The notes below the pieces were generated by a model. It was not told the DNA's origin. It worked only from the letters and a program-made list of their open reading frames with translations, and ran no database searches. This document shows positions 9,391-60,266 of a stretch of DNA of 64,000 nucleotides, piece after piece (the stretch's first letter is position 1; each line of letters begins with the position of its first letter). The stretch is taken from assembly GCA_963778555.1 (NCBI GenBank), contig CAVZUR010000005.1, positions 33,756-97,755 on the forward strand, in the 5' to 3' direction. The stretch comes from Candidatus Moraniibacteriota bacterium. GTDB taxonomy: Bacteria; Patescibacteriota; Minisyncoccia; Moranbacterales; UBA1568. The position numbers were made by a program, and so were the translations under genes.

Positions 9391-10479
9391 ATGGTCATCC
9401 ATGGCATCTTGGCCTTGTGCTGGCGCCGATTTGTCGCCCTAGCACTCGGTCTCGGCACTTCATTCGCTGTGTTGGCGAATGTTGTGGTCTATCCGGTGAA
9501 AACCGGTGATACGCTCTCGGCCATCGCCGAGCGGTTCTGCGGCGATTATGTCGCGATTGCACGTGACAATGGCATCGTCGATCCAAACCGAATCTATGCC
9601 GATCGGACAGTTCTGCGAATCACGGACCGTTGCGTCCGTACCGCTCCATCCGCCCCCTCGGTCACAGCAAAATCAGCTGTTTCCCCGAGGGAGTTCGCCG
9701 CAGTGGGCAGGGCTTCTTTGGGAAAACAATCAATCACTCCCAAAGCTCAGCCTCAGCCGCGAGTCGTCACGCGCATCGCTTCGGCTACTCAGCCGTCCCG
9801 TCCCGTCGTCATCGATGATGACGCAACCAAGCCGCTTTCAGTCGCCCGCCACCGCGAAATCTATCGCATTGTTGCGCTCCGCAACATCGATGCGAAGGAT
9901 CGGACCAGGGCACAGAACGCGGAGCTGGCTCGGCTCACGGCGCTCATCCGCCAAGAAGTACTCGCTCGCTATCGGTTGCCGAATGCGGATTGCCTGTATG
10001 CCAAGAATGATGGTAATAACTGGCGTGAACAGACGCTCGCTCGAGTGCGCTGTATCCGGCAGAATTACGGTGCTGTCATCGATGAAGTGGCAGCGAGCAA
10101 TCGGCTCCCTGCCGCGTATCTCGAGGCGGTCATCTTCATTGAGTCGGGTGGACAGCCGGATGCCATCTCATCGACGGGCTGCACCGGATTGAAGCAATTC
10201 ACCCAAAGCTCGGCCAAACTCTTTGGTCTCAAGGATCGCTTCGATCCGTTCGAGAGCCTCCGCGCCGGTGGCCGGCATCTCGCGGACAATCTTCGATTGT
10301 GGAAGGGCAATGTCGCCCAGGCGACCGCTCACTACAACATCGGCTCAGTCGTCGTGGGTGCTAAAGGGTTCAATGCTCAGGCATTCCCGTACACGCAGAG
10401 CGTGCTCCAAGTCCAGCGGCTGATCGAAACCGATCGCCGCGTCGTTGGTCAGTATCGCTCAGCGGTCCGATCACTCTAG
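9391..10479 (+). CDS. LysM domain-containing lytic transglycosylase (SLT domain)
   Basis: N-terminal hydrophobic anchor, LysM motif (YPVKTGDTLSAIAERF...IYADRTVL), and C-terminal SLT motif (ESGGQPDAISSTGCTGLKQFT). Confidence 0.8.
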   Translation: MVIHGILALCWRRFVALALGLGTSFAVLANVVVYPVKTGDTLSAIAERFCGDYVAIARDNGIVDPNRIYADRTVLRITDRCVRTAPSAPSVTAKSAVSPREFAAVGRASLGKQSITPKAQPQPRVVTRIASATQPSRPVVIDDDATKPLSVARHREIYRIVALRNIDAKDRTRAQNAELARLTALIRQEVLARYRLPNADCLYAKNDGNNWREQTLARVRCIRQNYGAVIDEVAASNRLPAAYLEAVIFIESGGQPDAISSTGCTGLKQFTQSSAKLFGLKDRFDPFESLRAGGRHLADNLRLWKGNVAQATAHYNIGSVVVGAKGFNAQAFPYTQSVLQVQRLIETDRRVVGQYRSAVRSL

Positions 10480-10775: not shown

Positions 10776-11501
10776 ATGGAATACCGATTTACTGGCATTA
10801 TGCTGCGGAAGCGCGAAGTAGGCGAGACGGACCGTTTTTATACTTTTTTCTCCCGCGAACAAGGCAAAGTGACCGCTATCGCCAAGGGCGTTCGAAAAGC
10901 CGAGGCGAAATTGGCGAGTTCACTCGAGACAGCGACCCTGGCCGAGATCATGGTGGCGCGAACGCGCGGAGTCGGGAAAATCACCGGCGCCGTGCTTGAG
11001 GAATCATATCCGGCAGTCCATCGCTCATACGAGTGCATTCGCGGCCTAACGCGTTTCTTCTCGGATGTTGATCGGCTTGTCGAAGCAGAAGAGAAGGATG
11101 AAATTCTTTTCATGTTGCTCAAAACATATTTAGAAACGGCCGAACATCTCATCGCAGACGGAAAAGCCATCCAACAGAACCGGATTCTAACTGAGGCGAC
11201 ATACTACCAGCTCTTCGCACTGCTCGGCTATCAGCTGGAACTGTCCGTTTGCGTCATCTCGCATGAGCGTCTCCGTTCTGGCGACCGGTTTTTCGTCAGC
11301 TTGGAAGCTGGCGGTATTGTTTCAGAAGCGCACGTGCGGGATGTGAGAGACGCACAGCCCGTGTCGGAGAACGCGATTAAAGCCCTCCGGCTCATGGTGC
11401 GAGAGCCGCTGCAACATATCCCGAAAATCGTCGTTGATGACAAAACACTTGAGGAGATTTCCCGACTTCGGACCATGTATCGTCGTTGGATCCGCGAGTA
11501 A
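10776..11501 (+). CDS. recO: DNA repair protein RecO
   Basis: RecO N-terminal OB-fold signature (MEYRFTGIMLRKREVGETDRFYTFFSREQGKV) and length (241 aa). Confidence 0.8.
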   Translation: MEYRFTGIMLRKREVGETDRFYTFFSREQGKVTAIAKGVRKAEAKLASSLETATLAEIMVARTRGVGKITGAVLEESYPAVHRSYECIRGLTRFFSDVDRLVEAEEKDEILFMLLKTYLETAEHLIADGKAIQQNRILTEATYYQLFALLGYQLELSVCVISHERLRSGDRFFVSLEAGGIVSEAHVRDVRDAQPVSENAIKALRLMVREPLQHIPKIVVDDKTLEEISRLRTMYRRWIRE

Positions 11502-13498
11502 AGAGCTTTCATGCGGCCTCGGGCTCTGATAAGATAGAGAAAAACACACACCCTGCTATGTCACTTGCGGATATCAATGAGGAAATTCATCGCCGCAGCC
11601 GCGAGACTGAGGCAGTCGCTCCTGGTGAAGCGCCGCGGTCAGCGCCGCCGTCGATTATGCCGCCGACGTCGTCGGAACCGATTCCCGAAGTGCCGCTGGG
11701 CGTTGCCTGGGGCGGCCAAGAGAAGCACGATGAACCGGTTGCGCCGGGCCTGAAGCTGCGCAATCCTTTTTCCCGACTGCCGAAAAAGATCGCATTGATA
11801 CTTGGTGGCGTGGCGATCCTCGCGGTCAGCGCCACCCTCCTGTTCAAGGGTGGAAGCTGGCTGTTTGTCCCAGAGAACGTCAAGGTGACTATCGAAGGAC
11901 CGAAACGTGTGGAAAGTAATGCGACCGCTGAGTACCTGATCCGGTATGAGAATAACAACTGGGTCGACCTTACGGATGCGGAACTTATCATCAGCTATCC
12001 CGAGATGTTTCACCTGGCCCCGATGGAGGGTCTCGAGGTAAGCGCTTCGCGCGCCGTTCTCACACTCGGGACTGTGAAAAAGTCGAGTCTGAATAGTCTC
12101 GTGCTCAAGGGTTCATTCCAATCGCTACAGGATCAGGTCGCACTTTTTACGGCTACTTTGCGTGCCGCACCCGAAGGTGTCGAGAGTCGAATCGATGCCA
12201 GCTATCAATACAGCGTCGCTATCGAAAGTTCGGCTCTTGTAGTCGAGCTCGTGGCACCATCGCAAGCGGGCGATGGTCAATTTGTCGACTATGTCGTAAC
12301 GTATCGCAATGAGAACACCGAGCGTATCGACAATCTCGAGCTGCGCCTCGACTATCCCTCAGGATTTACAGCCGCCGATCCGAGCGTACCGCCGGTACGG
12401 GGAGACAATGCTTGGAGTATCAGCGGGCTTGATCCGGGGGAGTCAGGTGTGATTACTATCCGCGGAACAATGGCCGGTGCTCAGGGCGACGTCAAGCGGG
12501 TCAAGGCGAGACTAGGCATTCCGCAGGGCGACGGGACACTTCTCTCGTATGCCGAAATCGAGCGCCAGACACGGGTTGTCGCCTCGCCGCTGGTGATTTT
12601 CCAAAAGATAGGGACGGAGGAAAAGAAATCCGTCTTACCAGGCGAGCGGATTCCCTATCGTCTCGTGTTCCGGAATGACGGCGATGTTGGATTGCGCGAC
12701 CTGATCGTCACCGTGGATCTTGATCCGGCATATTTCGACGTCAGTGAGATCGACCTCGGCGATGGAGGAAATTATAATAGCGCGAAAAAGCAGGTCATCT
12801 TCCGCGCGTCCGACCGGAAGGTACTCTCGCTCATCGAGCCGGGCCGGAGTGGAGATATCAGTTTTTCCATCCCGGTTCGTTCTGATCTGGTGGGCTTTCG
12901 GATGAATAATATCGAACTTGAATCGATTGCACGGATCGATAGTCCCGATGTGCCGACGCCAATCGGCGCCAACAAGATTGTTGGTAGCAACCGGATTGCC
13001 TTCAAGGTGAAGACGGATCCGGTGCTCCAGCTCCAGGGCTATCACTTCGATAGTCATGGCAATATCGGACCGGTGCCCCCAATTGTTGGGCAGGAGACTA
13101 CCTATACGCTATTATTGCGCGTCGGGAGCACATTCAACGCGATCGATGACGCGCGTGTTGTGCTCGCGATCCCCGGCCAGGTACGCTACCTAAAGACGCA
13201 TGCGGTCGGCCAGGGAGCAGTCGTGTATAATGATCGGACTGGTGAAATTGCCTGGAATATCGGCACCCTTCCGCCCGGTACGGATCGGCTGACTGAGCTC
13301 GCCATTCAGGTTGGGTTTACGCCTGATCCGAGCCAGGTTGGCGCTGAGGCGAAGATTGTAAACTCAGCTACCTTCACTGGCCGAGACCTCTGGACTGAGG
13401 AGGCGGTTTCAAAAAATCTTCCGAGCAAGAATATCCGGTTCTCCGAAGATCCTCAATTGATGGATCTCCGCGGGGGCGAAGTCCAGAAGGCGATCTGA
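11486..13498 (+). CDS. membrane-anchored hypothetical protein with tandem beta-sandwich (DUF11/CARDB-like) repeats
   Basis: Single TM segment (IALILGGVAILAVSATLLF) then repeated segments about 110 aa long (…LDYPSGFTAADPS…GLDPGESGVITIRG…). The start is uncertain: an internal Met around 11558 is also possible. Confidence 0.5.
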   Translation: MDPRVKSFHAASGSDKIEKNTHPAMSLADINEEIHRRSRETEAVAPGEAPRSAPPSIMPPTSSEPIPEVPLGVAWGGQEKHDEPVAPGLKLRNPFSRLPKKIALILGGVAILAVSATLLFKGGSWLFVPENVKVTIEGPKRVESNATAEYLIRYENNNWVDLTDAELIISYPEMFHLAPMEGLEVSASRAVLTLGTVKKSSLNSLVLKGSFQSLQDQVALFTATLRAAPEGVESRIDASYQYSVAIESSALVVELVAPSQAGDGQFVDYVVTYRNENTERIDNLELRLDYPSGFTAADPSVPPVRGDNAWSISGLDPGESGVITIRGTMAGAQGDVKRVKARLGIPQGDGTLLSYAEIERQTRVVASPLVIFQKIGTEEKKSVLPGERIPYRLVFRNDGDVGLRDLIVTVDLDPAYFDVSEIDLGDGGNYNSAKKQVIFRASDRKVLSLIEPGRSGDISFSIPVRSDLVGFRMNNIELESIARIDSPDVPTPIGANKIVGSNRIAFKVKTDPVLQLQGYHFDSHGNIGPVPPIVGQETTYTLLLRVGSTFNAIDDARVVLAIPGQVRYLKTHAVGQGAVVYNDRTGEIAWNIGTLPPGTDRLTELAIQVGFTPDPSQVGAEAKIVNSATFTGRDLWTEEAVSKNLPSKNIRFSEDPQLMDLRGGEVQKAI

Positions 13499-13529: not shown

Positions 13530-14642
13530 ATGGCCGGTTGGAGCGTTTCGAGAAAAATAATCGTGCAGACGAGAAACGGCGCCGTACGGACGCCGGTTTT
13601 CATGCCCATCGCGACGCGCGGCGCAGTGAAGCATCTCACGACGGATGAGCTTCTTGCGTTGGGTGCAGAAATCGTCCTCGGCAATACCTATCACCTGTGG
13701 CTGCGGCCGGGCGACGAGCTCATCGCGCGGGCCGGCGATCTCCACTCGTTCATGCGTTGGAATGGTCCTATCCTGACCGACTCCGGCGGCTTTCAGGTCT
13801 TTTCTCTTGGAGCGCGCGCCGCCGAGCGTTTTGGGAAAAACGGCGTAAAGCTTTCCGAAGAAGGTGTCGCGTTCCAGGACCCGACGAATGGCAATGGTTA
13901 TTTCCTTTCGCCAGAAAAATCGATTGATATCCAGCTCAATCTCGGATCGGACATCATGATGGTCCTGGACGAATGTCCGCCGTATCCCTGCACCAGAGAG
14001 TATGCGCTTTCATCGCTTGAGCGGACCATGCGTTGGGCGGCCCGGGCGAAAGCACATTTCGAAAAACGCGTCATCGAGCTCAGCCTGCAAGAGAAGCGAC
14101 CGCTGCTCTTCGGGATTGTCCAAGGGTCGGTCTATCCGGAACTCCGAGAACAGAGCGCACGCGGGCTTGTCGCAATCGGTTTCGACGGTTATGCCATCGG
14201 CGGCGTGGCAGTGGGCGAGCCGCGCGAAACCTTGCCCGCTGTCCTTGCGGCGACATTGCCATTTCTACCGGAGGACAAGCCGCGCTATCTGATGGGTCTC
14301 GGCCGACCGGAGGAGATCGTCGCGGCCGTCCGGGCCGGGGTGGATATGTTCGATTGCGTCATCCCGACGCGCGAAGGGCGGCATGGCCGGCTTTTCTATT
14401 GGACGGGGACGCCGCTCGATACGAACGGGAGTTTCTATTCGACGAAGAATCTGACGAGCGATGAGTTCCGCGAGGACTTCTCACCGATTGACGCCGACAG
14501 CCCGGTTATTGCGCTTCGTGAATACTCCAAAGCCTATCTCCGTCATCAGTTCGCGATGGCTGAACCCTTGGCGGGACGTCTCGCCACGCTTCACAATCTG
14601 GCTTTCTATCTCGGTCTCATGCAAAAGCTTCGGGAGGAATAA
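13530..14642 (+). CDS. tgt: queuine tRNA-ribosyltransferase (tRNA-guanine transglycosylase)
   Basis: Tgt motifs PVFMPIATRGAVKHLT, LGNTYHLWLRPG, ILTDSGGFQVFSL and CxC..C zinc site. Confidence 0.9.
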   Translation: MAGWSVSRKIIVQTRNGAVRTPVFMPIATRGAVKHLTTDELLALGAEIVLGNTYHLWLRPGDELIARAGDLHSFMRWNGPILTDSGGFQVFSLGARAAERFGKNGVKLSEEGVAFQDPTNGNGYFLSPEKSIDIQLNLGSDIMMVLDECPPYPCTREYALSSLERTMRWAARAKAHFEKRVIELSLQEKRPLLFGIVQGSVYPELREQSARGLVAIGFDGYAIGGVAVGEPRETLPAVLAATLPFLPEDKPRYLMGLGRPEEIVAAVRAGVDMFDCVIPTREGRHGRLFYWTGTPLDTNGSFYSTKNLTSDEFREDFSPIDADSPVIALREYSKAYLRHQFAMAEPLAGRLATLHNLAFYLGLMQKLREE

Positions 14643-14645
14643 GAA

Positions 14646-14677
14646 AAGCCCGCTGTCCGGTTAGAGAGAGCGGGCTT
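14646..14677. terminator. hairpin terminator between convergent tgt and the minus-strand operon
   Basis: AAGCCCGCT-14-nt loop-AGCGGGCTT; A-rich on the + side means T-rich for the minus-strand transcript. Confidence 0.5.
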
Positions 14678-14698
14678 GCTGAGCGGCTGAAGCGCGGT

Positions 14699-15061
14699 TC
14701 AGGCCGGTGTTCGTTCACGGGCGTTGAGAGCCAGCATGTTGCCAGTCAGCGTCCGAAGGAGCGTGATGCGAAAGGCACGCATCTCGGCCTCTGTAGACGA
14801 AACAGGTGCGGCGCTCGTCATGCAATCCACGAGCGAGTCGGTGAGTCGCCGCGCTTCTTCTTCGAAGAGCGTGGCGAGGCCGGTGTCGTTTTTGTGTTTG
14901 AGGTGCTCGCGCAGGCGAGGAATCGTGTCCAGGAAATGGATGCCAGCAATCTGCTCCACCAGCGTCCAGGGGATTTCGATTCGTTCCGTCACGAGTTTCC
15001 GGAGATGGACGACGGCCTTTTTTGGGTCGTCGATTCGGTCGTACGAGGGATATACGTTCAT
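14699..15061 (-). CDS. hypothetical protein (120 aa), last gene of minus-strand operon
   Basis: Clean ORF with AGGAGA RBS 8 nt upstream of the ATG; no recognisable family. Confidence 0.5.
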   Translation of the reverse strand: MNVYPSYDRIDDPKKAVVHLRKLVTERIEIPWTLVEQIAGIHFLDTIPRLREHLKHKNDTGLATLFEEEARRLTDSLVDCMTSAAPVSSTEAEMRAFRITLLRTLTGNMLALNARERTPA

Positions 15062-15074
15062 GGCGGTCTCCTGG

Positions 15075-15461
15075 TTACACGAGGGCGAAATCGATTTTGA
15101 CCTTTACGGTCGCCAGCGTCTCCATCAGCTGGATGAGCGCGTCCCAGCGCCGGAATTTTTCTCCGGCACGGATACTCCCAATGCCGCCGTGTTTCATGCT
15201 GGCTACGAAAGCGGCCTTCTCTTTTTCTGTCATGGCCAGCAGCTCTCGCCTCGCCGCCACGACGGCACCGAGCTGCGCATACAGCATGAGGAACACGGGT
15301 GTTTTTCCCGGCCCCATGAATTCCGGGATGATGTATTCCCGGACCAATCCGAGCCAATGGAAGGCCCCGATCCGTTCGCCCTGTGAGGTTCTCATCCTGA
15401 GAATCTCGAGGTGCATTTGCAGCTCCTCGCAGGGATGATGTGTCGTTTCGGCAGTTGTCAT
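15075..15461 (-). CDS. hypothetical protein (128 aa)
   Basis: C-terminal part of the longer 15075-15971 ORF. The Met at 15461 overlaps the stop of the upstream gene as ATGA. The N-terminal extension of the long ORF is Arg/Pro-rich junk. Confidence 0.45.
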   Translation of the reverse strand: MTTAETTHHPCEELQMHLEILRMRTSQGERIGAFHWLGLVREYIIPEFMGPGKTPVFLMLYAQLGAVVAARRELLAMTEKEKAAFVASMKHGGIGSIRAGEKFRRWDALIQLMETLATVKVKIDFALV

Positions 15462-15898
15462 GTGGATCTCCGAGTGAAGGGAAGGTGGAATTCGGTTCGG
15501 ACGAACCGAGAGGGGAGGCAGTAGCGCGACAGGATGTGGATGCTCTCGGCGAGACAGAGGGCGAGAAAGGCGATGAGGCCGATCGTCAGACCGATGCCGA
15601 ATGCGAGCGCCCACTGCCCGAGAGTGTCCGATGGTACGAGCGGGGCGATGGTACGGAACCACAGTCTGAACCAGGGCGCTACCGGGAGATGGAGCGTGAG
15701 ATAGATCACGAGGATAGCTGCCAGCCATCCGGGCTCGCACTCGTCTGTCGTGTGTCTCGGTTGCGGCTGAGCGGCAGGCCCTGGTGGCCACAACACGATA
15801 CCGCTCCGGATAACCAGAGTGGAAACGAGGGCGCTGCCGATGATGAGCACCCAGCCGAGGGTGGTGTACTCGAATGCAGGAGCGATTTCGTTGCTCAT
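15458..15898 (-). CDS. integral membrane protein, ~4 TM helices (146 aa)
   Basis: Start MSNEIAP preceded by GAGGTGG RBS; hydrophobic segments through most of its length; ATGA overlap with the upstream gene. Confidence 0.5.
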   Translation of the reverse strand: MSNEIAPAFEYTTLGWVLIIGSALVSTLVIRSGIVLWPPGPAAQPQPRHTTDECEPGWLAAILVIYLTLHLPVAPWFRLWFRTIAPLVPSDTLGQWALAFGIGLTIGLIAFLALCLAESIHILSRYCLPSRFVRTEFHLPFTRRST

Positions 15899-16107
15899 GA
15901 GACCACCTCGTCGTTTCGCCATTCGTGGCGGCAGTCGAGACAGCCGTAGAGCGGACTGTGCAGCAGGGCAAAACGGATCATATCCGTGTTGAGGCTCCGG
16001 CAGGCCGGGCAGGCCGTATCCGGGCACCAAGCGCGCCAGAAACCGTACAGGACTGCCAGCGCGATGAGGAGAGCGATACCTGGGCCGATGTACGACATGA
16101 GATTCAT
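15895..16107 (-). CDS. small membrane protein with C-terminal zinc-ribbon (CPxxxCPxC...CxxC), 70 aa
   Basis: AGGAG RBS before ATG; N-terminal TM helix then a 5-Cys cluster, 4 of them in a zinc-ribbon arrangement. Confidence 0.5.
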   Translation of the reverse strand: MNLMSYIGPGIALLIALAVLYGFWRAWCPDTACPACRSLNTDMIRFALLHSPLYGCLDCRHEWRNDEVVS

Positions 16108-16257
16108 GTGGACTCCTTGTGTTGGTGTAGGGACTTGAGTTGAAGAAACTGCCTAAACAGGCTAGGATAGCCTAAGAATACGCAGCGTTGGATTGTTAAA
16201 GAATTCTATTATCCTACACGTTTTACTTGGTATTGTCAAGTCTCAGCGCTCGAAACT

Positions 16258-19991: not shown

Positions 19992-20276
19992 CTATTTGCC
20001 GAAAATCCAGTCTGCAAAGGCGGCGTTGGCGATGAGACAGCTATTGCTGTCGAGCGCGCACAGCGCCGATGCCATTAAGTACCCTACGGGGAGGCTGGCG
20101 ATGATGAGCGTCCAGAACATCCAACGCTCGCTTCTCGGCGAAAACTCGCCCTTGAGCCAGTCGATGAATATCGACAACTTCAGCGCGATGGTGAGCATCA
20201 CCATGTCGAATCGATCCATTCGGTCCACGTTCTCTCCTTGGTTGTGAAAGATTACTTCAATTGAAGTTGCCCACAT
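19992..20276 (-). CDS. small hydrophobic hypothetical protein
   Basis: ORF with two predicted TM segments; the ORF track starts at a TTG at 20303, an in-frame ATG lies at 20276; no clear RBS. Confidence 0.3.
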   Translation of the reverse strand: MWATSIEVIFHNQGENVDRMDRFDMVMLTIALKLSIFIDWLKGEFSPRSERWMFWTLIIASLPVGYLMASALCALDSNSCLIANAAFADWIFGK

Positions 20277-20338
20277 TATACATGATAAACTCAGAAAAGT
20301 CAAGGATGGAGAGTATTCATTTCTTGGCTTAGAAAAGG

Positions 20339-46486: not shown

Positions 46487-47749
46487 GTGGCTTCGGCGAC
46501 CGCTTCAGGTGGACTCGTCATGACCGGGACCGAAGGCGCCTCGCTCGGCATCCTGCTTCCAACCGCGACCGACGGTCTCTCGACAACCACTTCTTCTGGC
46601 TCTGGTTTGGAATTGCTATCAAATGGATTAACCTTGCTGCAAGGCTGTGCGAATAATGAAGTTTTGTCATGGAACGAGTCGCTCGATCTTTGGTCCTGTA
46701 CCTCCATCGCGGGCGTCGGTGGCGTTACTGGTTCTGCCACTACCGGACAGGCTGCTTTCTGGAGTGGTACATCGACTATTGCTGGTGAGAATCAGCTTGC
46801 TACTTCTCGCGGTGGTACCGGGGTTAATGGTTCAGCAGCCGCCAATGGTTCGCTCCTCATCGGCAACGGCACGGGGTATACACTGGCGACGCTCACCCAA
46901 GGTACGGGTATCACCGTCACCAACGGCGCAGGAAGCATCACCATCGCTTCAACCCTCGGGACAAGCATCGATCTCACGACTGAAGTGACCGGCACCCTCC
47001 CAGTCGGCAATGGTGGTACTGGCGCCACCACCTTCACTGCCAATGGCGTCCTCTATGGCAACACCACCGGTGCGGTCCAAGTCACCGCCGCTGGCACGAA
47101 TGGTCAGCTCCTCCTCGGCGTTACGGCTGGTGCCCCGACCTTCGCCACCATGAGTAGCGATGCCACTATCACCAATGCTGGTGTCCTGACCATCGCCGCC
47201 AATGCTGTCGCCCTCACCACCGATACCACGGGGAACTATGTCGCGAATGTCGCGAATGGGAATGGCATCGCGGGCGGCTCAGCGGGGAGCGAAGGGGCCG
47301 CATTGACCCTCGCGATTGATCTCCTTGATTCAGCGGACGGTGCGGGCGCAGTGGCGAGCAACTCAGGTCTTGAATTTCAAGGTGCGGGATCGAATGAACT
47401 CGCCATCATCCAAGGCTGTTCCAATGGCCAAGGTATTTCCTGGGATGACACGACCAATCTTTGGCAATGTACCAGCTTCTCTGCCGGACTCGCTGGGAGT
47501 GGCACGACCGGTTATGCGACCTACTGGAGTGGCACCTCCTCCTTGGGGAGCGAGCAATTTCTCTCGACGGTCAGAGGCGGCACCGGTCTCGATGGCTCAG
47601 CGGCCGCCAATGGCACCCTCCTCATCGGCAATGGCACGGGGTATACGCTGAGCGACGTTGACCGATGGTACGGGTATTACTATCACGGAAGGCGCAGGAA
47701 GCATCACCATCGCTTCCACCCTCGGGACAAGCATCGATCTCACGACTGA
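46487..47749 (+). CDS. giant surface protein, segment 2 (continues segment 1 after the frame break)
   Basis: Same module sequence (…LIGNGTGYTLATLTQGTGITVTNGAGSITIASTLGTSIDLTTEVTGTLPVGNGG…); coding continuity with no intervening start or RBS. Confidence 0.65.
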   Translation: MASATASGGLVMTGTEGASLGILLPTATDGLSTTTSSGSGLELLSNGLTLLQGCANNEVLSWNESLDLWSCTSIAGVGGVTGSATTGQAAFWSGTSTIAGENQLATSRGGTGVNGSAAANGSLLIGNGTGYTLATLTQGTGITVTNGAGSITIASTLGTSIDLTTEVTGTLPVGNGGTGATTFTANGVLYGNTTGAVQVTAAGTNGQLLLGVTAGAPTFATMSSDATITNAGVLTIAANAVALTTDTTGNYVANVANGNGIAGGSAGSEGAALTLAIDLLDSADGAGAVASNSGLEFQGAGSNELAIIQGCSNGQGISWDDTTNLWQCTSFSAGLAGSGTTGYATYWSGTSSLGSEQFLSTVRGGTGLDGSAAANGTLLIGNGTGYTLSDVDRWYGYYYHGRRRKHHHRFHPRDKHRSHD

Positions 47750-50700
47750 AGTGACCGGCACCCTCCCAGTCGGCAATGGTGGTACCGGCGCCACCACCTT
47801 CACTGCCAATGGCGTCCTCTATGGCAACACCACCGGTGCGGTTCAAGTCACCGCCGCCGGCACGAATGGCCAACTCCTCCTCGGCGTCACCGCTGGTGCC
47901 CCGACCTTCGCCACTATGAGTAGCGATGCCTCCATCACCAATGCTGGTGTCCTGACCATCGCCGCCGATGCTGTCGCCCTCACCACCGATACCACAGGGA
48001 ACTATGTGGCCAGCCTCACCGCTGGTAACGGTATCAGTGGTACCGTCGCCAGCGAGGGAGCAACCCCGACCCTCGATATCGATCTCCTTGTCGCTGCTGA
48101 TGGCACGGGCGTCACTTCCTCCAATTCCGGTCTCGAATTCGCTGGTGCAAGCTCTGATAAGCTCGCACTCATCCAAGGCTGTTCCAATGGTCAAGGTATT
48201 TCCTGGAATGACACGACCAATCTCTGGGAATGCACCAGTTTCTCCGCCGGACTCTCCGGGAGTGGCACGACCGGTTATGCGACCTACTGGAGTGGCACCT
48301 CCTCCTTGGGGAGCGAGCAATTTCTCTCGACGGTCAGAGGTGGTACCGGTCTCGACGGTTCAGCCGCCGCCAATGGCACCCTCCTCATTGGCAATGGCAC
48401 GGGATATACGTTAGCGACCCTGACCGGTACGGCGAATGAAATTGGCATTACGAATGCCGCTGGCTCCATCACTATCGGTGTCCCGGATGACGGACTCGAC
48501 TTCACCGAATTCCAAGACACCCTCGATCTCGATGCGGCTCTCACCCTGAACCAGACCACCAATACCTGGACCCAGTCCTTCACCGGCACCACCACCACCG
48601 GCTTCGCCTACACCGCCACTTCCCTCACCACCGGCTCCGCCCTCAATGTCACTACCACCAATACCGCCACCGCCAACACCGCCCTCTCACCGGTTCAGTT
48701 CAATCTGACGAATGCTCAATCAACTACCGCCAACACCAATGGTGTCACCGGCCTCGCCGTCAACTTCACCAACAACCCGAGTGTTGCTGGTAACACGGAG
48801 TACGCGCTCCGGATCCAGAATCAGCTCACCGCGAACGTCACCGACAACGCTGTCAGTGCCCTCCTCCTCCTCGACAACGCCGACTCTACCGCGACTGGCA
48901 CCACCATCGTCACCGATGCCATCGCCATCACGAACTCAGGCGGATCGAACTTCACCAACTTCCTCAATACCCCGACCCTCGACATCAGTGCGGCGGGGGC
49001 GATCACCGGAGCGACGGGGATCACAAGCTCGGGGAACATCACGTTCTCTAGCCTCACCGCGAACTCTTTCCTCTACTCGGGTACGGGCGGTCTCCTCACC
49101 ACGACGACCGCTCCGACCAATGGCCAGCTCCTTATCGGAAGTACCGGCGTGGCTCCCGTCGCCGCGGCACTCACCCAAGGGACGGGTATCACCGTCACCA
49201 ACGGTGCAGGAAGCATCACCATCGCTTCCACCCTCGGGACGAGCGTGGACCTCACAACTGAAGTGACCGGCACCCTCCCAGTCGGCAATGGCGGTACCGG
49301 CGCGACATCGCTGACGGATCTCATCGCGTTGACGACGCATACCACGGGGAACTATGTGGCGAATGTTGCGAATGGGAACGGTATCGCGGGCGGCTCAGCG
49401 GGGAGCGAAGGGGCTTCCCTCACGCTCGCAATCGATTTACTGGATGTGGACGACAGTACGGGAGCGATTGCGAGCAACTCCGGCCTCGAATTCCAGGGCG
49501 CCGGTTCCAATGAGCTGACTCTCCTTCAAGGTTGTGCTGACACCGAGATTCTCGCTTGGGACAATACGACCAATGAATGGGAATGTGCGACAGTATCCGG
49601 CGTCGGCGGACTCTCTGGAAGCGGTACCACGAATTACGCTACCTATTGGACTGGGACCTCAACGTTAGGTGCTGAGGCTCAGCTCGATGAAACTCGCGGT
49701 GGTACCGGGATTGGAACGTATGCGACGGGTGACGTTCTCTATGCGAGTGGTGTGAATACCCTCGCCCGACTTGCGGCTGGTACTGACGGACAAGTACTGG
49801 TTCTGTCGAGTGGCGTACCGGTGTGGAGTACGATCGGAGGCGGAGGCGGAGGCGGAGTGACCGCTGACTCCCTCGACTTCACCGAATTCCAAGACACCCT
49901 CGATCTCGATGCGGCCCTCACCCTGAACCAGACCACCAATACCTGGACCCAGTCCTTCACCGGCACCACCACCACCGGCTTCGCCTACACCGCCACTTCC
50001 CTCACCACTGGCTCCGCCCTCAATGTCACTACCACCAATACCGCCACCGCCAACACCGCCCTCTCACCGGTTCAGTTCAATCTGACGAATGCTCAATCAA
50101 CTACCGCCAACACCAATGGTGTCACCGGCCTCGCCGTCAACTTCACCAACAACCCGAGTGTTGCTGGTAACACGGAGTACGCGCTCCGGATCCAGAATCA
50201 GCTCACCGCGAACGTCACCGACAACGCTGTCAGTGCCCTCCTCCTCCTCGACAACGCCGACTCTACCGCGACTGGCACCACCATCGTCACCGATGCCATC
50301 GCCATCACGAACTCAGGCGGATCGAACTTCACCAACTTCCTCAATACCCCAACCCTCGACATCAGTGCGGCGGGGGCCATCACTGGAGCGACGGGGATCA
50401 CCTCGAGTGGCTCTATCACCTTTAGTGCCTTTACCAGTAATGGTGGTCCGCTCTACACCAACGGTTCGGGTGTCATCGCTCAAACCACTGCCGGGACAGC
50501 AACCCAAGTCCTCCATGGTGGTACTGCTCCAAGCTTCTCCGCGGTCTCCCTCACCACCGATGTCTCGGGCACCCTCCCAGTCGGCAATGGCGGTACTGGC
50601 GCCACCACCTTCACTGCCAATGGCGTCCTCTATGGCAACACCACCGGTGCGGTCCAAGTCACCGCCGCTGGCACGAATGGTCAGCTCCTCCTCGGCGTCA

Positions 50701-52724
50701 CGGCTGGTGCCCCGACCTTCGCCACCATGAGTAGCGATGCCTCCATCACCAATGCTGGTGTCCTGACCATCGCCGCCGATGCTGTCGCTCTCACCACCGA
50801 TACCACGGGGAACTATGTCGCGAATGTCCAGACGAGCGTCCTCACCGGTCTCACCGGTGGCTCAGCGGGGAGCGAAGGAGCGTCTCTCACCCTCAACCTC
50901 GATTACTCCCAAGCCCTGACCGGGGATGTGGCCTTGGGTGCGAATGCAGGTGTCTTCGGTCAGTCCGGCTTCGCCTTCGAAGGCTCGAGTGCTGATACGA
51001 TCGAGACCTATCTCGTCGTCACCAATCCTACTGCCTCGGACAAGACGATTACGTTCCCGGATGCATCCGGCACCGTTGTCCTGTCAGGTGGGACACTGTT
51101 CACGGCCGCTGGCACCTCCGGTTCCAGCCAAACCATCTCGCAGGGGGATACTCTGACTATCGCCGCTGGTACCGGTATCACGACCACCGGCGGAGCGACT
51201 GATACCATCACCATCGCTTCAACCCTCGGGACAAGCATCGCCGCAGCTGAAGTCGATGCAGATGCTCTCGACTTCACCGAATTCCAAGACACCCTCGATC
51301 TCGATGCGGCTCTCACCCTGAACCAGACCACCAATACCTGGACCCAGTCCTTCACGGGCACCACCACCACCGGCTTCGCCTACACCGCCACTTCCCTCAC
51401 CACGGGCTCCGCCCTCAATGTCACCACCACCAATACCGCCACCGCCAACACCGCCCTCTCACCGGTTCAGTTCAATCTGACGAATGCTCAATCAACTACC
51501 GCCAACACCAATGGTGTCACCGGCCTCGCCGTCAACTTCACCAACAACCCGAGTGTTGCCGGTAACACGGAGTACGCGCTCCGGATCCAGAATCAGCTCA
51601 CCGCGAACGTCACTGACAACGCTGTCAGTGCTCTCCTCCTCCTCGACAACGCCGACTCTACCGCGACTGGCACCACCATCGTCACCGATGCCATCGCCAT
51701 CACGAACTCAGGCGGATCGAACTTCACCAACTTCCTCAATACCCCGACCCTCGACATCAGTGCGGCGGGGGCGATCACCGGAGCGACGGGGATCACAAGC
51801 TCGGGGAACATCACGTTCTCTAGCCTCACCGCGAACTCTTTCCTCTACTCGGGTACGGGCGGTCTCCTCACCACGACCACCGCTCCGACCAATGGTCAGC
51901 TCCTTATCGGTTGTACCGGTGTGGCTCCAGTCGCCGCGGCACTTACCCAAGGCACGGGTATCACCGTCACCAACGGTGCGGGAAGCATCACCATCGCTTC
52001 TACCCTCGGGACGAGCGTGGACCTCACAACTGAAGTGACCGGCACCCTCCCAGTCGGCAATGGTGGTACTGGCGCCACCACCTTCACTGCCAATGGCGTT
52101 CTCTATGGCAACACCACCGGTGCGGTCCAAGTCACCGCCGCTGGCACGAATGGTCAGCTCCTCCTCGGCGTCACGGCTGGTGCCCCGACCTTCGCCACCA
52201 TGAGTAGCGATGCCTCCATCACCAATGCTGGTGTCCTGACCATCGCCGCCGATGCTGTCGCTCTCACCACCGATACCACGGGGAACTATGTCGCGAATGT
52301 CCAGACGAGCGTCCTCACCGGTCTCACCGGTGGCTCAGCGGGGAGCGAAGGAGCGTCTCTCACCCTCAACCTCGATTACTCCCAAGCCCTGACCGGGGAT
52401 GTGGCCTTGGGTGCGAATGCAGGTGTCTTCGGTCAGTCCGGCTTCGCCTTCGAAGGCTCGAGTGCTGATACGATCGAGACCTATCTCGTCGTCACCAATC
52501 CTACTGCCTCGGACAAGACGATTACGTTCCCCAACGTGTCCGGCACCATCGTCCTTCTGGATGGCGCTCAGACCTTACGAGTGCGACCTGGAACCGACGG
52601 CTATCGGTGCACAGTATGGCGGCAGGCGGTACTTAACACGAGTGCTTCAACCGGCATCCCCACCATTTCGGCTGGTACCTGGAGCGTCTCATGCCACGCT
52701 CGGCGCTGCTTCGATCACCGCTGA
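47658..52724 (+). CDS. giant surface protein, segment 3 (1688 aa; +1 break at about 47651 relative to segment 2)
   Basis: Longest uninterrupted run; contains at least three full modules. Confidence 0.7.
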   Translation: MTDGTGITITEGAGSITIASTLGTSIDLTTEVTGTLPVGNGGTGATTFTANGVLYGNTTGAVQVTAAGTNGQLLLGVTAGAPTFATMSSDASITNAGVLTIAADAVALTTDTTGNYVASLTAGNGISGTVASEGATPTLDIDLLVAADGTGVTSSNSGLEFAGASSDKLALIQGCSNGQGISWNDTTNLWECTSFSAGLSGSGTTGYATYWSGTSSLGSEQFLSTVRGGTGLDGSAAANGTLLIGNGTGYTLATLTGTANEIGITNAAGSITIGVPDDGLDFTEFQDTLDLDAALTLNQTTNTWTQSFTGTTTTGFAYTATSLTTGSALNVTTTNTATANTALSPVQFNLTNAQSTTANTNGVTGLAVNFTNNPSVAGNTEYALRIQNQLTANVTDNAVSALLLLDNADSTATGTTIVTDAIAITNSGGSNFTNFLNTPTLDISAAGAITGATGITSSGNITFSSLTANSFLYSGTGGLLTTTTAPTNGQLLIGSTGVAPVAAALTQGTGITVTNGAGSITIASTLGTSVDLTTEVTGTLPVGNGGTGATSLTDLIALTTHTTGNYVANVANGNGIAGGSAGSEGASLTLAIDLLDVDDSTGAIASNSGLEFQGAGSNELTLLQGCADTEILAWDNTTNEWECATVSGVGGLSGSGTTNYATYWTGTSTLGAEAQLDETRGGTGIGTYATGDVLYASGVNTLARLAAGTDGQVLVLSSGVPVWSTIGGGGGGGVTADSLDFTEFQDTLDLDAALTLNQTTNTWTQSFTGTTTTGFAYTATSLTTGSALNVTTTNTATANTALSPVQFNLTNAQSTTANTNGVTGLAVNFTNNPSVAGNTEYALRIQNQLTANVTDNAVSALLLLDNADSTATGTTIVTDAIAITNSGGSNFTNFLNTPTLDISAAGAITGATGITSSGSITFSAFTSNGGPLYTNGSGVIAQTTAGTATQVLHGGTAPSFSAVSLTTDVSGTLPVGNGGTGATTFTANGVLYGNTTGAVQVTAAGTNGQLLLGVTAGAPTFATMSSDASITNAGVLTIAADAVALTTDTTGNYVANVQTSVLTGLTGGSAGSEGASLTLNLDYSQALTGDVALGANAGVFGQSGFAFEGSSADTIETYLVVTNPTASDKTITFPDASGTVVLSGGTLFTAAGTSGSSQTISQGDTLTIAAGTGITTTGGATDTITIASTLGTSIAAAEVDADALDFTEFQDTLDLDAALTLNQTTNTWTQSFTGTTTTGFAYTATSLTTGSALNVTTTNTATANTALSPVQFNLTNAQSTTANTNGVTGLAVNFTNNPSVAGNTEYALRIQNQLTANVTDNAVSALLLLDNADSTATGTTIVTDAIAITNSGGSNFTNFLNTPTLDISAAGAITGATGITSSGNITFSSLTANSFLYSGTGGLLTTTTAPTNGQLLIGCTGVAPVAAALTQGTGITVTNGAGSITIASTLGTSVDLTTEVTGTLPVGNGGTGATTFTANGVLYGNTTGAVQVTAAGTNGQLLLGVTAGAPTFATMSSDASITNAGVLTIAADAVALTTDTTGNYVANVQTSVLTGLTGGSAGSEGASLTLNLDYSQALTGDVALGANAGVFGQSGFAFEGSSADTIETYLVVTNPTASDKTITFPNVSGTIVLLDGAQTLRVRPGTDGYRCTVWRQAVLNTSASTGIPTISAGTWSVSCHARRCFDHR

Positions 52725-52945
52725 CTCCCTCGACTTCACCGAATTCCAAGACACCCTCGATCTCGATGCGGCCCTCACCCTGAACCAGACCACCAATACC
52801 TGGACCCAGTCCTTCACCGGCACCACCACCACCGGCTTCGCCTACACCGCCACTTCCCTCACCACGGGCTCCGCCCTCAATGTCACCACCACCAATACCG
52901 CCACCGCCAACACCGCCCTCTCACCGGTTCAGTTCAATCTGACGA

Positions 52946-60213: not shown

Positions 60214-60266
60214 TACCATCACCATCGCTTCCACCCTCGGGACGAGCATCGCCGCAGCTGAAGTCG

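What the first reader, a model, noticed from the sequence alone, without database searches (positions are those of the whole stretch)
14646..16107. Compact minus-strand 4-gene operon of unknown function with a zinc-ribbon membrane protein
Four small ORFs are translationally coupled by ATGA overlaps and a 13-nt gap. The first is a 70-aa protein with a TM helix plus a CPxxxCPxC…CxxC zinc-ribbon. Then come a ~4-TM membrane protein and 128-aa and 120-aa soluble proteins, all with good RBS and a shared terminator. None matches a family I recognise. The segment looks GC-richer than its flanks by eye (not computed), and it is the only minus-strand gene cluster in a + strand stretch, which hints at horizontal acquisition. 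It could be a small membrane signalling or defence module.
Basis: partly seen in the sequence, partly recalled or inferred. Interest (0 to 1): 0.55.

Follow-up and report, generated by a model that had tools for sequence, protein, structure and literature searches.

The report
Orphan fast-evolving small membrane-protein operon
This is a real four-gene operon (a zinc-ribbon membrane protein, a three-helix membrane protein and two small helical proteins) found only in one narrow group of uncultivated Patescibacteria-like bacteria, where it always sits between the tgt and glyS genes and changes far faster than its neighbours; its function is unknown.

Summary
Four minus-strand ORFs (70, 146, 128 and 120 aa) are coupled by two ATGA overlaps and a 13-nt gap. 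Each has an RBS, and they share one sigma-70-like promoter and one terminator hairpin. ORF2 has 3 hydrophobic helices, not about 4. No protein matches Pfam, NCBIfam, PADLOC, PHROGs, PDB sequences or Foldseek libraries.

In 5.8 billion clustered and 1.84 billion representative proteins I found only three relatives of ORF3. Their contigs carry the same locus: IleRS-SLT-RecO-DUF11-Tgt-[cluster, opposite strand]-GlyRS-M16-RsmI-MetRS. So the cluster is inherited in place within a small clade. It is not a recent island, although it is GC-richer than its flanks (0.60 vs 0.54).

The conserved core is ORF2-ORF3-ORF4. ORF1 is seen only in this genome, and relatives carry an extra ORF4 paralog.

The cluster diverges much faster than its flanks. 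Two strains with about 99% identical flanking proteins share only 63-69% identity in three cluster proteins, and dS is raised as well. All cluster promoters carry a TTAACAA element found nowhere else in the sequences examined.

Function is unresolved. My tentative reading is a strain-variable conflict module (toxin/immunity or phage exclusion) with a membrane effector. An ordinary clade-specific membrane complex is about equally likely. Interest is modest.

The parts
16211..16239 (-). Sigma-70-type promoter: TTGACA (16239..16234), 17 nt, TAGGAT (16216..16211)
   Evidence: Consensus scan scored 10/12. It aligns with the TTGACA-N17-TATATT promoters in front of gene A and gene D in relatives L083 and L087.
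16193..16203 (-). TTCTTTAACAA element, 7 nt downstream of the -10 hexamer (about at the transcription start); candidate operator or 5' leader motif
   Evidence: TTAACAA occurs once in the 64-kb window (both strands). It occurs twice each in L087 (16 kb) and L083 (9.6 kb), always at cluster promoters. It is invariant in all 5 aligned promoter instances. It stays unpaired in predicted leader folds.
16108..16204 (-). 5' leader of about 97 nt with RBS AAGGAG (16118..16113) and a window-specific hairpin
   Evidence: Sequence. Leader fold of the 111-nt stretch 16095..16205, which also takes in the first 13 nt of ORF1: -21.6 kcal/mol, z -2.7. The leader is longer than in relatives.
15895..16107 (-). 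ORF1, 70 aa: N-terminal TM helix (about residues 7-25) plus C-terminal 4-Cys zinc-ribbon-like motif (C33xxC36 ... C56xxC59, with an extra C28). Predicted N-out/C-in, which is an inference from R25 following the helix.
   Evidence: Only sub-threshold zinc-ribbon Pfam hits. The coding frame is favoured by the codon model, and a gene caller called it. No homolog in relatives L083-L090, so it is a genome-specific accessory and the least certain of the four genes.
15458..15898 (-). ORF2, 146 aa: 3-TM membrane protein with a GxGxxxG-type motif (G101-I-G103-L-T-I-G107) in TM3 and a basic C-terminal tail. It is a conserved core gene ('A' in relatives, 120 aa, without the tail).
   Evidence: Hydropathy. 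39% identical to L083/L087 gene A, E about 1e-17. Alignment A8. dN/dS 0.55 vs L002 and 0.20 between L083 and L087.
15075..15461 (-). ORF3, 128 aa: soluble all-helical protein and core gene ('B'). The true start is the ATG of the ATGA overlap, not the internal Met16 used by the gene caller.
   Evidence: Homologs P0002 (59%), P0007 and P0008 (28-31%). N-terminal residues P10, E13 and L14 are conserved upstream of Met16. dN/dS 0.36. The AF2 model is all-helical but poor (pLDDT 51).
14699..15061 (-). ORF4, 120 aa: soluble all-helical protein and core gene ('D'), the best conserved of the set (motifs IDDPKKAV..LR.L, W....E.IA..HF.DT.P.L, DT.LA..FEEEA, A[FY]RITLL)
   Evidence: 42-45% identical to L083/L087 gene D, E about 1e-23 to 1e-27. 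About 77% identical to the L002 fragment, dN/dS 0.17. Alignment A5. Gene C in relatives is a probable paralog (hhalign 71%, E 3.8e-5, 102 columns). AF2 predicts four helices, pLDDT 58.
14638..14677 (-). Intrinsic terminator: 9-bp stem AAGCCCGCU/AGCGGGCUU with UUCUUAUU tail, abutting the convergent tgt stop codon
   Evidence: Inverted repeat I8. Fold -25.2 kcal/mol, z -2.68, no shuffle as stable. The simple scan missed it because its loop is longer than that scan allows.

Best explanation
SHOWN: This is a genuine, clade-restricted operon, transcribed from its own sigma-70-type promoter in the opposite direction to the surrounding housekeeping genes. It has been kept at the same place (between tgt and glyS) in every relative found. 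Its conserved core is a 3-TM membrane protein (ORF2) plus two unrelated small all-helical cytoplasmic proteins (ORF3, ORF4). ORF1 (TM helix plus zinc ribbon) is an add-on seen only in this genome. Relatives instead carry a duplicated ORF4-like gene and a second promoter in front of the ORF4 homolog. The genes are under purifying selection but diverge far faster than their neighbours, with raised synonymous divergence that indicates allele replacement by recombination. All promoters of the cluster share a TTAACAA element at the transcription start that occurs nowhere else in the sequences examined.

INFERRED (low confidence): The proteins form a membrane-associated complex. ORF2, probably oligomerising through its glycine-rich (GxGxxxG) TM3 motif, would be the membrane-acting component. 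ORF3 and ORF4 would be cytoplasmic partners that control or sense. ORF1 would add a zinc-ribbon tethered to the inner face of the membrane. The cluster would be co-regulated, possibly by one of its own products, through the TTAACAA element.

Hypervariability between near-identical strains, gene gain, loss and duplication, and the narrow distribution are the behaviour of inter-genomic conflict loci. My best guess is therefore a strain-variable toxin/immunity-like or phage-exclusion-like module whose effector is the small membrane protein.
For: Reality and anatomy.

Rarity: ORF3 has 2 hits and ORF4 only itself among 5.8 billion clusters. A profile search of 1.84 billion representatives adds one protein. 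All four proteins are singleton 90% clusters.

Fixed locus: L083-L090 have IleRS-SLT/LysM-RecO-DUF11-TGT-[A,B,C,D on the opposite strand]-GlyRS-M16-RsmI-MetRS, as in the window.

Fast divergence, window vs L083/L087: Tgt 86%, RecO 82%, GlyRS 80%, RsmI 80%, M16 73% and DUF11 66%, against ORF4 42-45%, ORF2 39% and ORF3 28-29%.

Fast divergence, L083 vs L087: Tgt, DUF11 and RecO are 98.6-99.1% identical, with dS 0.11-0.24 and dN/dS 0.02-0.05. B, C and D are 67, 69 and 63% identical, with dS 0.71, 0.71 and 0.37 and dN/dS 0.32, 0.26 and 0.65. DNA identity drops to 0.53-0.88 across the cluster and returns sharply to 0.99 inside tgt.

Gene turnover: ORF1 is absent in relatives. C is present only there and is a D paralog.

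Shared promoter element. Gene D has its own promoter after an internal terminator in relatives, as is common for immunity or antitoxin genes (my own knowledge).
Against: No sequence or fold similarity to any known toxin, antitoxin, defence or phage protein. This covers PADLOC, Pfam, NCBIfam and PHROGs, PDB sequence profiles and Foldseek against PDB and BFVD with low-confidence models.

The cluster sits among housekeeping genes, not in a defence island or mobile element. It has been retained in place across lineages, which is also what an ordinary cellular function would give. dN/dS is below 1 everywhere.

The neighbouring glyS was also replaced in one strain, so recombination there is not specific to the cluster. 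Lagging-strand (head-on) orientation might itself raise the mutation rate (my own knowledge; contested).

Only four lineages and two close haplotypes are available. Protein-protein contacts, membrane topology and zinc binding are all untested.
Confidence: 0.35

Rival explanations
1. An ordinary, clade-specific membrane complex with a cell-physiological role (for example envelope, division or transport accessory). Its small helical subunits tolerate many substitutions. The high divergence would be a by-product of weak constraint, lagging-strand orientation and a local recombination hotspot.
For: The cluster keeps a stable syntenic position and orientation across lineages whose flanks differ by 14-43%. 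All comparisons show purifying selection. The context is housekeeping. There is no defence or mobile-element signature. Recombination also replaced the adjacent glyS, and patches of 88-95% identity occur elsewhere in the flanks.
Against: dS in B and C is 3-6 times that of the flanks between two near-identical strains. Weak constraint cannot produce that. Gene content is not stable: ORF1 and C come and go. The cluster is absent from the nearest species-representative genome.
Confidence: 0.3
2. A membrane-tethered regulatory (signalling) module. ORF1 and ORF2 would sense an envelope or metal signal. They would hold or release a small helical DNA-binding protein (ORF4 or its paralog) that acts on the TTAACAA element of the cluster's own promoters.
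For: An identical, otherwise absent TTAACAA element sits at the start site of all five cluster promoters, including the separate D promoter. The zinc-ribbon is tethered next to the membrane. The ORF4 segment WTLVEQIAGIHFLDTIPRLREHL looks helix-turn-helix-like by eye (my own reading, not a test).
Against: No HTH, sigma or anti-sigma family hit appears even at E<=1 for any member. ORF1 is missing in relatives, so it cannot be the core sensor. No ZAS motif and no sigma factor gene are in the cluster. Regulators are not usually hypervariable between strains.
Confidence: 0.15
3. A recently acquired horizontal island. The GC-rich, inverted segment would have been inserted between tgt and glyS in this genome.
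For: GC is 0.601 vs 0.538, GC3 is raised and tetranucleotide distance is at the 99th percentile. The orientation is opposite to the flanks. The cluster is absent from the closest species-representative genome, where the tgt-glyS interval holds four unrelated + strand genes.
Against: The homologous cluster sits at the same site and in the same orientation in three other lineages. No direct repeats, integrase or adjacent tRNA are present. No relatives occur in viral, phage or plasmid collections. In relatives the GC excess is only 0.02-0.03. The 45-64 kb part of the window is equally GC-rich.
Confidence: 0.07
4. The ORFs are chance open frames in GC-rich DNA, or the real genes lie on the + strand (220-aa and 169-aa ORFs overlap on the + strand).
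For: Long ORFs occur on both strands here. The codon model separates a frame only weakly from its direct antisense frame, with margins of 0.017-0.17 per codon. ORF1 has no homolog.
Against: Protein-level conservation of ORF2, ORF3 and ORF4 reaches down to 28-45% identity with co-linear alignments. Substitutions are biased to the third position, with dN/dS of 0.17-0.55. RBSs, ATGA coupling, promoter and terminator all lie on the minus strand. The + strand translations are Arg/Ser-rich and low in complexity.
Confidence: 0.02

Closest known systems
Two-component abortive-infection/exclusion modules with a small polytopic membrane effector (e.g. phage lambda RexA/RexB; RexB is a 144-aa four-TM protein; from my own knowledge)
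   Same: A small multi-TM protein of about 120-146 aa is co-expressed with small cytoplasmic partner proteins. The cluster is strain-variable and narrowly distributed.
   Different: There is no sequence or profile similarity (PADLOC negative). ORF2 has 3 TM helices, not 4. There is no prophage or defence-island context, and the locus is fixed among housekeeping genes. No phenotype is known.
Type II toxin-antitoxin operons
   Same: The proteins are small (about 120 aa) and tightly or translationally coupled. An operator-like element overlaps the promoter. Turnover and duplication are rapid.
   Different: No toxin or antitoxin fold or family is detectable. The cluster has four genes including membrane proteins. 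It is not on mobile DNA, and autoregulation is untested.
Class I holins (3 TM, about 95-130 aa, charged C-terminal tail; from my own knowledge)
   Same: ORF2 has 3 hydrophobic helices, a similar size and, in the window and L002, a basic C-terminal tail.
   Different: There is no adjacent endolysin or phage gene and no significant PHROG hit (best E 0.17). The tail is missing in L083/L087. The gene is conserved at a chromosomal housekeeping locus.
Membrane-anchored zinc-binding anti-sigma factors (ZAS family, HxxxCxxC; from my own knowledge)
   Same: ORF1 combines a Cys-rich zinc-binding-type motif with a TM helix.
   Different: The order is reversed (TM first, Cys motif after). The motif is a CxxC...CxxC ribbon, not HxxxCxxC. 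No sigma factor gene is in the cluster, and ORF1 is not conserved in relatives.
Generic zinc-ribbon domains (Pfam Zn_ribbon clan)
   Same: Two CxxC knuckles lie 19 residues apart. Weak hits to Zn_ribbon_Dof, TFIIS and YjdM appear (E 0.007-0.036).
   Different: All scores are far below the gathering thresholds (16.9 vs 26.6 bits at best). Membership of any specific family is not established.

Membership tests
Zinc-ribbon domain (ORF1) | Two Cys knuckles (CxxC ... CxxC) able to bind one Zn | tested here: met
   C33-P-A-C36 and C56-L-D-C59 are read directly from the sequence. Metal binding itself is not testable here.
Zinc-ribbon domain (ORF1) | Profile score at or above the Pfam gathering threshold of a Zn_ribbon family | tested here: not met
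   The best hit is Zn_ribbon_Dof at 16.9 bits against a 26.6-bit cut-off. The others are lower.
Known anti-phage defence systems (PADLOC-DB 2.0) | HMM match of at least one component | tested here: not met
   The four window proteins give 0 hits. One isolated 18-bit RmrT hit in L083 gene B (E 2.8e-4) is not reproduced in the L087 gene B, in the other ORF3 relative scanned in that call (P0002), or in the window's own ORF3.
Known anti-phage defence systems | Location in a defence island or mobile element | tested here: not met
   The neighbours are IleRS, SLT/LysM, RecO, DUF11, Tgt, GlyRS, M16 peptidase, RsmI and MetRS.
Type II toxin-antitoxin | Recognisable toxin and antitoxin domains | tested here: not met
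   No Pfam or NCBIfam family at E<=1 beyond noise.
Type II toxin-antitoxin | Autoregulation through an operator in the promoter | tested here: inconclusive
   A conserved TTAACAA element is present at the start site of all cluster promoters. The binding protein is unknown.
Class I holin | Three TM helices in a protein of about 100-130 aa | tested here: met
   Three hydrophobic stretches in ORF2 and in gene A of relatives.
Class I holin | Lysis-cassette context (adjacent endolysin, phage genes) or holin family match | tested here: not met
   No significant PHROG or Pfam hit (PHROG best E 0.17 for ORF2). The neighbours are tgt and glyS. No viral relatives.
ZAS anti-sigma factor | HxxxCxxC motif in an N-terminal anti-sigma domain with a cognate ECF sigma gene | tested here: not met
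   The motif and the sigma gene are both absent, and the topology is reversed.
Horizontally acquired genomic island | Present in this genome but absent at the same site in close relatives; flanking repeats, integrase or tRNA | tested here: not met
   The homologous cluster sits at the same site in L002 and L083-L090. There are no flanking repeats and no adjacent tRNA.
Horizontally acquired genomic island | Atypical composition | tested here: met
   GC is 0.601 vs 0.538 +/- 0.024 and tetranucleotide distance is at the 99th percentile. The excess is only 0.02-0.03 in relatives.
WXG100 / Esx-like helical hairpins (considered for ORF3) | Conserved central W-x-G motif | tested here: not met
   W36-L-G38 is present in the window and P0002 but is replaced by V-L-T / A-L-A in P0007 and P0008.

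The most novel reading that the evidence does not exclude
The cluster is a previously undescribed, Patescibacteria-restricted conflict system. A small 3-TM effector would be controlled by two or three unrelated helical proteins and expressed from twin promoters carrying a private TTAACAA operator. Divergent alleles would be maintained by recombination or balancing selection at a fixed chromosomal site between tgt and glyS.
Probability: 0.2. Interest if true: 0.6.

Novelty: categorically new. Interest (0 to 1): 0.3.

Why it matters
If the conflict reading is right, this would be a new minimal membrane-effector system from episymbiotic, uncultivated bacteria, whose defence and compatibility repertoire is poorly known. 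It would also be a clean example of allele replacement at a fixed housekeeping locus.

As it stands, 'categorically new' means only that none of the four proteins matches any described family or fold. It does not mean that a new mechanism has been shown. Orphan small-protein operons are common in such genomes, so the practical value is a well-delimited, testable lead rather than a discovery.

Tried and rejected
- **Family libraries.** All four proteins and nine relatives gave nothing reproducible in Pfam, NCBIfam, PADLOC or PHROGs.
- **PDB sequence and profile searches.** Nothing below E 0.02, and only TM-helix noise.
- **JGI metagenome contigs.** Two scans, with the ORF3 and ORF4 alignments, found nothing.
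- **Viral contigs, annotated phages and plasmids.** Three scans plus three tblastn searches found nothing.
- **Mobile-element signature.** There are no meaningful direct or inverted repeats flanking the cluster.
- **Anti-Shine-Dalgarno idea.** I tested whether the conserved 5' UUCUUU/UUCCUU pairs with the AAGGAG RBS. The element is unpaired in all four predicted leader folds, and two of the folds are no better than shuffles.
- **Motif ideas.** A WXG100 reading of ORF3 fails because the motif is not conserved. HEPN (Rx4-6H) and hemerythrin-type His/Glu patterns in ORF4 are not conserved in alignment A5.
- **Relatedness within the cluster.** ORF3 is not detectably related to ORF4 or C (hhalign probability 0.3-2.3%). 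There are no paralogs elsewhere in the window.
- **Sample provenance.** A literature search for the sample accessions returned no papers.
- **Source genome.** It was not found among the species representatives; the best Tgt match is 56%.
Full report
**1. The observation.** The minus strand of 14.6-16.3 kb carries four consecutive ORFs: ORF1 16107..15895 (70 aa), ORF2 15898..15458 (146 aa), ORF3 15461..15075 (128 aa) and ORF4 15061..14699 (120 aa). ORF1/ORF2 and ORF2/ORF3 overlap by ATGA. ORF3 and ORF4 are separated by the 13 nt CCAGGAGACCGCC. Every start has a GGAG-type RBS 7-8 nt upstream. Upstream lies a TTGACA-17-TAGGAT promoter at 16239..16211. Downstream, a 9-bp G+C-rich hairpin with a U-rich tail at 14677..14638 abuts the stop codon of the convergent tgt gene (-25.2 kcal/mol, z -2.7).

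ORF1 has one hydrophobic helix followed by CPDTACPAC...CLDC. ORF2 has three hydrophobic stretches, not about four. ORF3 and ORF4 have none.

The cluster's GC is 0.601 against 0.538 +/- 0.024 for equal-sized windows in 1-45 kb (99.9th percentile). GC3 is 0.69-0.76 against 0.54-0.68 in neighbours, and tetranucleotide distance is at the 99th percentile. The 45-64 kb part of the window is equally GC-rich.

All genes I could identify in 1-45 kb are on the + strand. They include IleRS, SLT/LysM, RecO, a DUF11 surface protein, Tgt, GlyRS, M16 peptidase, RsmI, MetRS and the ATP synthase operon. The long minus-strand ORFs elsewhere are antisense shadows of these genes. Only tRNA-Leu is on the minus strand. 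The description is therefore correct apart from the TM count.

**2. Are they genes?** Yes, for ORF2-4. A 901-bp JGI contig (L002) encodes a 59%-identical ORF3 flanked by the end of an ORF2 homolog and the start of an ORF4 homolog. The ATGA overlap and a 14-nt AGGAG spacer are conserved there. Substitutions between the two loci are biased to third positions (ORF3 43/21/51; ORF4 N-terminus 13/5/26). dN/dS is 0.36, 0.17 and 0.55 for ORF3, the ORF4 N-terminus and the ORF2 C-terminus. A codon model trained on neighbouring genes prefers the annotated frame for all four ORFs. An independent gene caller called all four on an identical Logan contig.

The caller started ORF3 at Met16. Residues upstream of Met16 are conserved in all homologs (P10, E13, L14), so the 128-aa reading with the ATGA overlap is the better one.

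ORF1 has no homolog anywhere. It rests on its RBS, the coupling and codon statistics only.

**3. Homology.** None of the four proteins, and none of nine relatives, matches Pfam, NCBIfam, PADLOC or PHROGs reproducibly. ORF1 gets only sub-threshold zinc-ribbon hits. PDB sequence and profile searches are empty.

AlphaFold2 gave all-helical but low-confidence models (ORF3 pLDDT 51, ORF4 pLDDT 58). Foldseek found nothing at E<=0.001 in PDB or BFVD. Two other fold libraries were unavailable.

In 5.8 billion protein clusters, ORF3 finds itself plus one relative and ORF4 finds only itself. All four are singleton clusters from one 228.6-kb NCBI/ENA MAG contig. An exhaustive profile search of 1.84 billion representatives added a single remote ORF3 homolog, P0007 (E 1.5e-4). 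A follow-up search added P0008. Scans of metagenome contigs, viral contigs, phages and plasmids found nothing.

**4. Context in relatives: the decisive result.** The contigs carrying P0007 and P0008 (L083-L090, Logan assemblies SRR30502xxx) have the window's gene order: IleRS-SLT/LysM-RecO-DUF11-TGT-[small genes on the opposite strand]-GlyRS-M16-RsmI-MetRS.

Their cluster reads as follows:
- A: 120 aa, 3 TM, 39% identical to ORF2.
- B: 121 aa, 28-29% identical to ORF3.
- C: 119 aa.
- D: 128-129 aa, 42-45% identical to ORF4.

C is a probable paralog of D/ORF4 (hhalign 71%, E 3.8e-5 over 102 co-linear columns). B is unrelated to C and D. There is no ORF1 homolog.

In these relatives A-B-C end at a terminator, and D has its own TTGACA-17-TATATT promoter.

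The cluster is therefore not a recent island in this genome. It is a clade-level feature kept at one site and in one orientation. The nearest species-representative genome is a Parcubacteria MAG (56% Tgt identity) that shares the DUF11-like-tgt ... glyS arrangement. It has four unrelated + strand genes in the interval instead. The cluster therefore arose or arrived in the ancestor of this small clade. No repeats, integrase or tRNA flank it.

**5. Evolutionary behaviour.** Between the window and L083/L087, flanking proteins are 57-86% identical: Tgt 86, RecO 82, GlyRS 80, RsmI 80, M16 73, DUF11 66 and SLT 57-59. The cluster proteins are the most divergent in the neighbourhood, at 28-45%.

The comparison of L083 and L087 is more telling. 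Tgt, DUF11 and RecO are 98.6-99.1% identical, with dS 0.11-0.24 and dN/dS 0.02-0.05. By contrast, A, B, C and D are 91, 67, 69 and 63% identical, with dS 0.27, 0.71, 0.71 and 0.37 and dN/dS 0.20, 0.32, 0.26 and 0.65. DNA identity is 0.99-1.0 over the shared promoter and the start of A. It falls to 0.53-0.88 through the rest of the cluster and returns abruptly to 0.99 inside tgt.

Raised dS cannot come from relaxed constraint. It points to replacement by divergent alleles through recombination, to long-lived alleles, or to locally raised mutation.

The neighbouring glyS of L083 is itself a 57%-identical xenolog joined after the first ~24 codons. The locus is therefore a recombination hotspot in its own right. 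Only two haplotypes were seen in eight contigs.

The window's raised GC3 could reflect GC-biased gene conversion at such a hotspot. This is an inference from my own knowledge of that hypothesis.

**6. A private promoter element.** All five promoter instances align as TTGACA-N17-TAnnnT-N7-TT(C/A)(T/C)TTAACAA. These are the window's ORF1 promoter and the A and D promoters of L083 and L087. The heptamer TTAACAA occurs once in the whole 64-kb window, and twice each in L087 and L083, always at these promoters. It lies at about the transcription start. It does not pair with the RBS in predicted leader folds. An operator or a single-stranded 5' RNA motif is therefore more likely than an anti-SD.

**7. 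What it most likely is.** It is shown that this is a clade-restricted, positionally conserved, fast-diverging operon, with a 3-TM membrane protein and two unrelated small helical cytoplasmic proteins as its core.

The rest is inferred. The products would assemble at the membrane, given the conserved glycine-rich (GxGxxxG) TM3 motif in ORF2 and the basic cytoplasmic tail in the window and L002 forms. ORF1 would add a cytoplasmic zinc-ribbon in this genome, with topology inferred from the positive-inside rule. The cluster would be co-regulated through TTAACAA.

Hypervariability between near-identical strains, duplication, gain and loss, the narrow distribution and a separately promoted downstream gene are typical of conflict loci. 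I therefore rank a toxin/immunity-like or phage-exclusion-like module with the membrane protein as effector first, at confidence about 0.35. An ordinary clade-specific membrane complex in a recombination hotspot follows at about 0.30. A membrane-tethered autoregulatory module follows at about 0.15. Recent horizontal acquisition (about 0.07) and non-coding artefact (about 0.02) are largely excluded.

**8. Comparison with known systems.** By analogy only, the cluster resembles RexAB-type exclusion modules, type II TA operons and class I holins in protein sizes and architecture. It fails every membership test that could be run: no family match, no phage, island or lysis context, no ZAS motif and no sigma partner. 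ORF1 meets the bare zinc-ribbon pattern but reaches no family threshold.

**9. Verdict.** The proteins lie outside every described family, so the cluster is 'new' by default, but no new mechanism is demonstrated. Orphan small-protein operons are common in Patescibacteria-like genomes. Interest is modest (0.3). The strain-level hypervariability and the private promoter element are the parts most worth following.

Noticed in passing
window 47658-63737 (+): Four giant + strand ORFs (1688, 1490, 994 and 1156 aa) lie in a GC 0.60 region with strongly negative GC skew. Recurring 213-aa alternative-frame ORFs (six listed starts between 50089 and 60493, five of them 1383-1439 bp after the one before; one gap of 4.8 kb) suggest an internal repeat of about 1.4 kb. 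All four give the same sub-threshold Pfam Phage_TTP_2 hit (17-23 bits against a 27-bit cut-off). They look like huge repetitive surface or fibre proteins.
   Followed up: partly
window 19992-20303 (-); L087 3820 (+): A near-consensus promoter (TTGACT-17-TATAAT) points against the housekeeping direction in the RsmI-MetRS interval. It is followed in the window by a 76-aa hydrophobic ORF with no Pfam match. The promoter is conserved at the equivalent place in L087. This may be a second small minus-strand gene or an sRNA, so the four-gene cluster may not be the only minus-strand unit.
   Followed up: partly
L083 1-690 vs L087 6757-7446: In strain L083 the glyS gene next to the cluster is a xenolog. 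Its product is only 57% identical to L087's GlyRS, as distant as a different Parcubacteria genome. The first ~24 codons and the 200-bp promoter region remain 99-100% identical, and the other flanks are about 99% identical. This is an aminoacyl-tRNA synthetase replacement with a junction inside the gene.
   Followed up: partly
window 15417-15461 (-): The public gene call for ORF3 (113 aa, P0001) starts at the internal Met16. Conservation of the upstream residues and of the ATGA overlap in L002 indicates that the 128-aa form is correct.
   Followed up: yes
L002 860-901: Near the contig end the ORF4 homolog loses protein similarity while DNA similarity continues, which fits a 1-nt indel. This is probably an assembly error at a low-coverage end. 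I read it by eye.
   Followed up: no
window 16148-16186 (-): The window's leader of about 97 nt contains a stable hairpin with core AGGCUA-UCC-UAGCCU. The window's leader carries an insertion of about 29 nt relative to those of L083 and L087, in an adjacent part of the alignment. L087 has a different hairpin right after the TTAACAA element. No Rfam family matches.
   Followed up: partly
window 9391-10479 and 11486-13498 (+): After the cluster itself, the SLT/LysM transglycosylase and the DUF11 (CLIPPER-like) 670-aa surface protein are the fastest-diverging genes in the neighbourhood (57-59% and 66% identity to relatives, against 80-86% for Tgt, GlyRS and RecO). Cell-surface functions in this lineage seem to evolve quickly in general.
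   Followed up: no
whole window: The source genome was not found among 185,579 species representatives (best Tgt identity 56%, to a Parcubacteria MAG). The four cluster proteins and Tgt are nevertheless recorded from an NCBI/ENA MAG contig of 228,612 bp. The lineage is a poorly sampled Patescibacteria-like clade with an unusually high GC of about 55%.
   Followed up: partly
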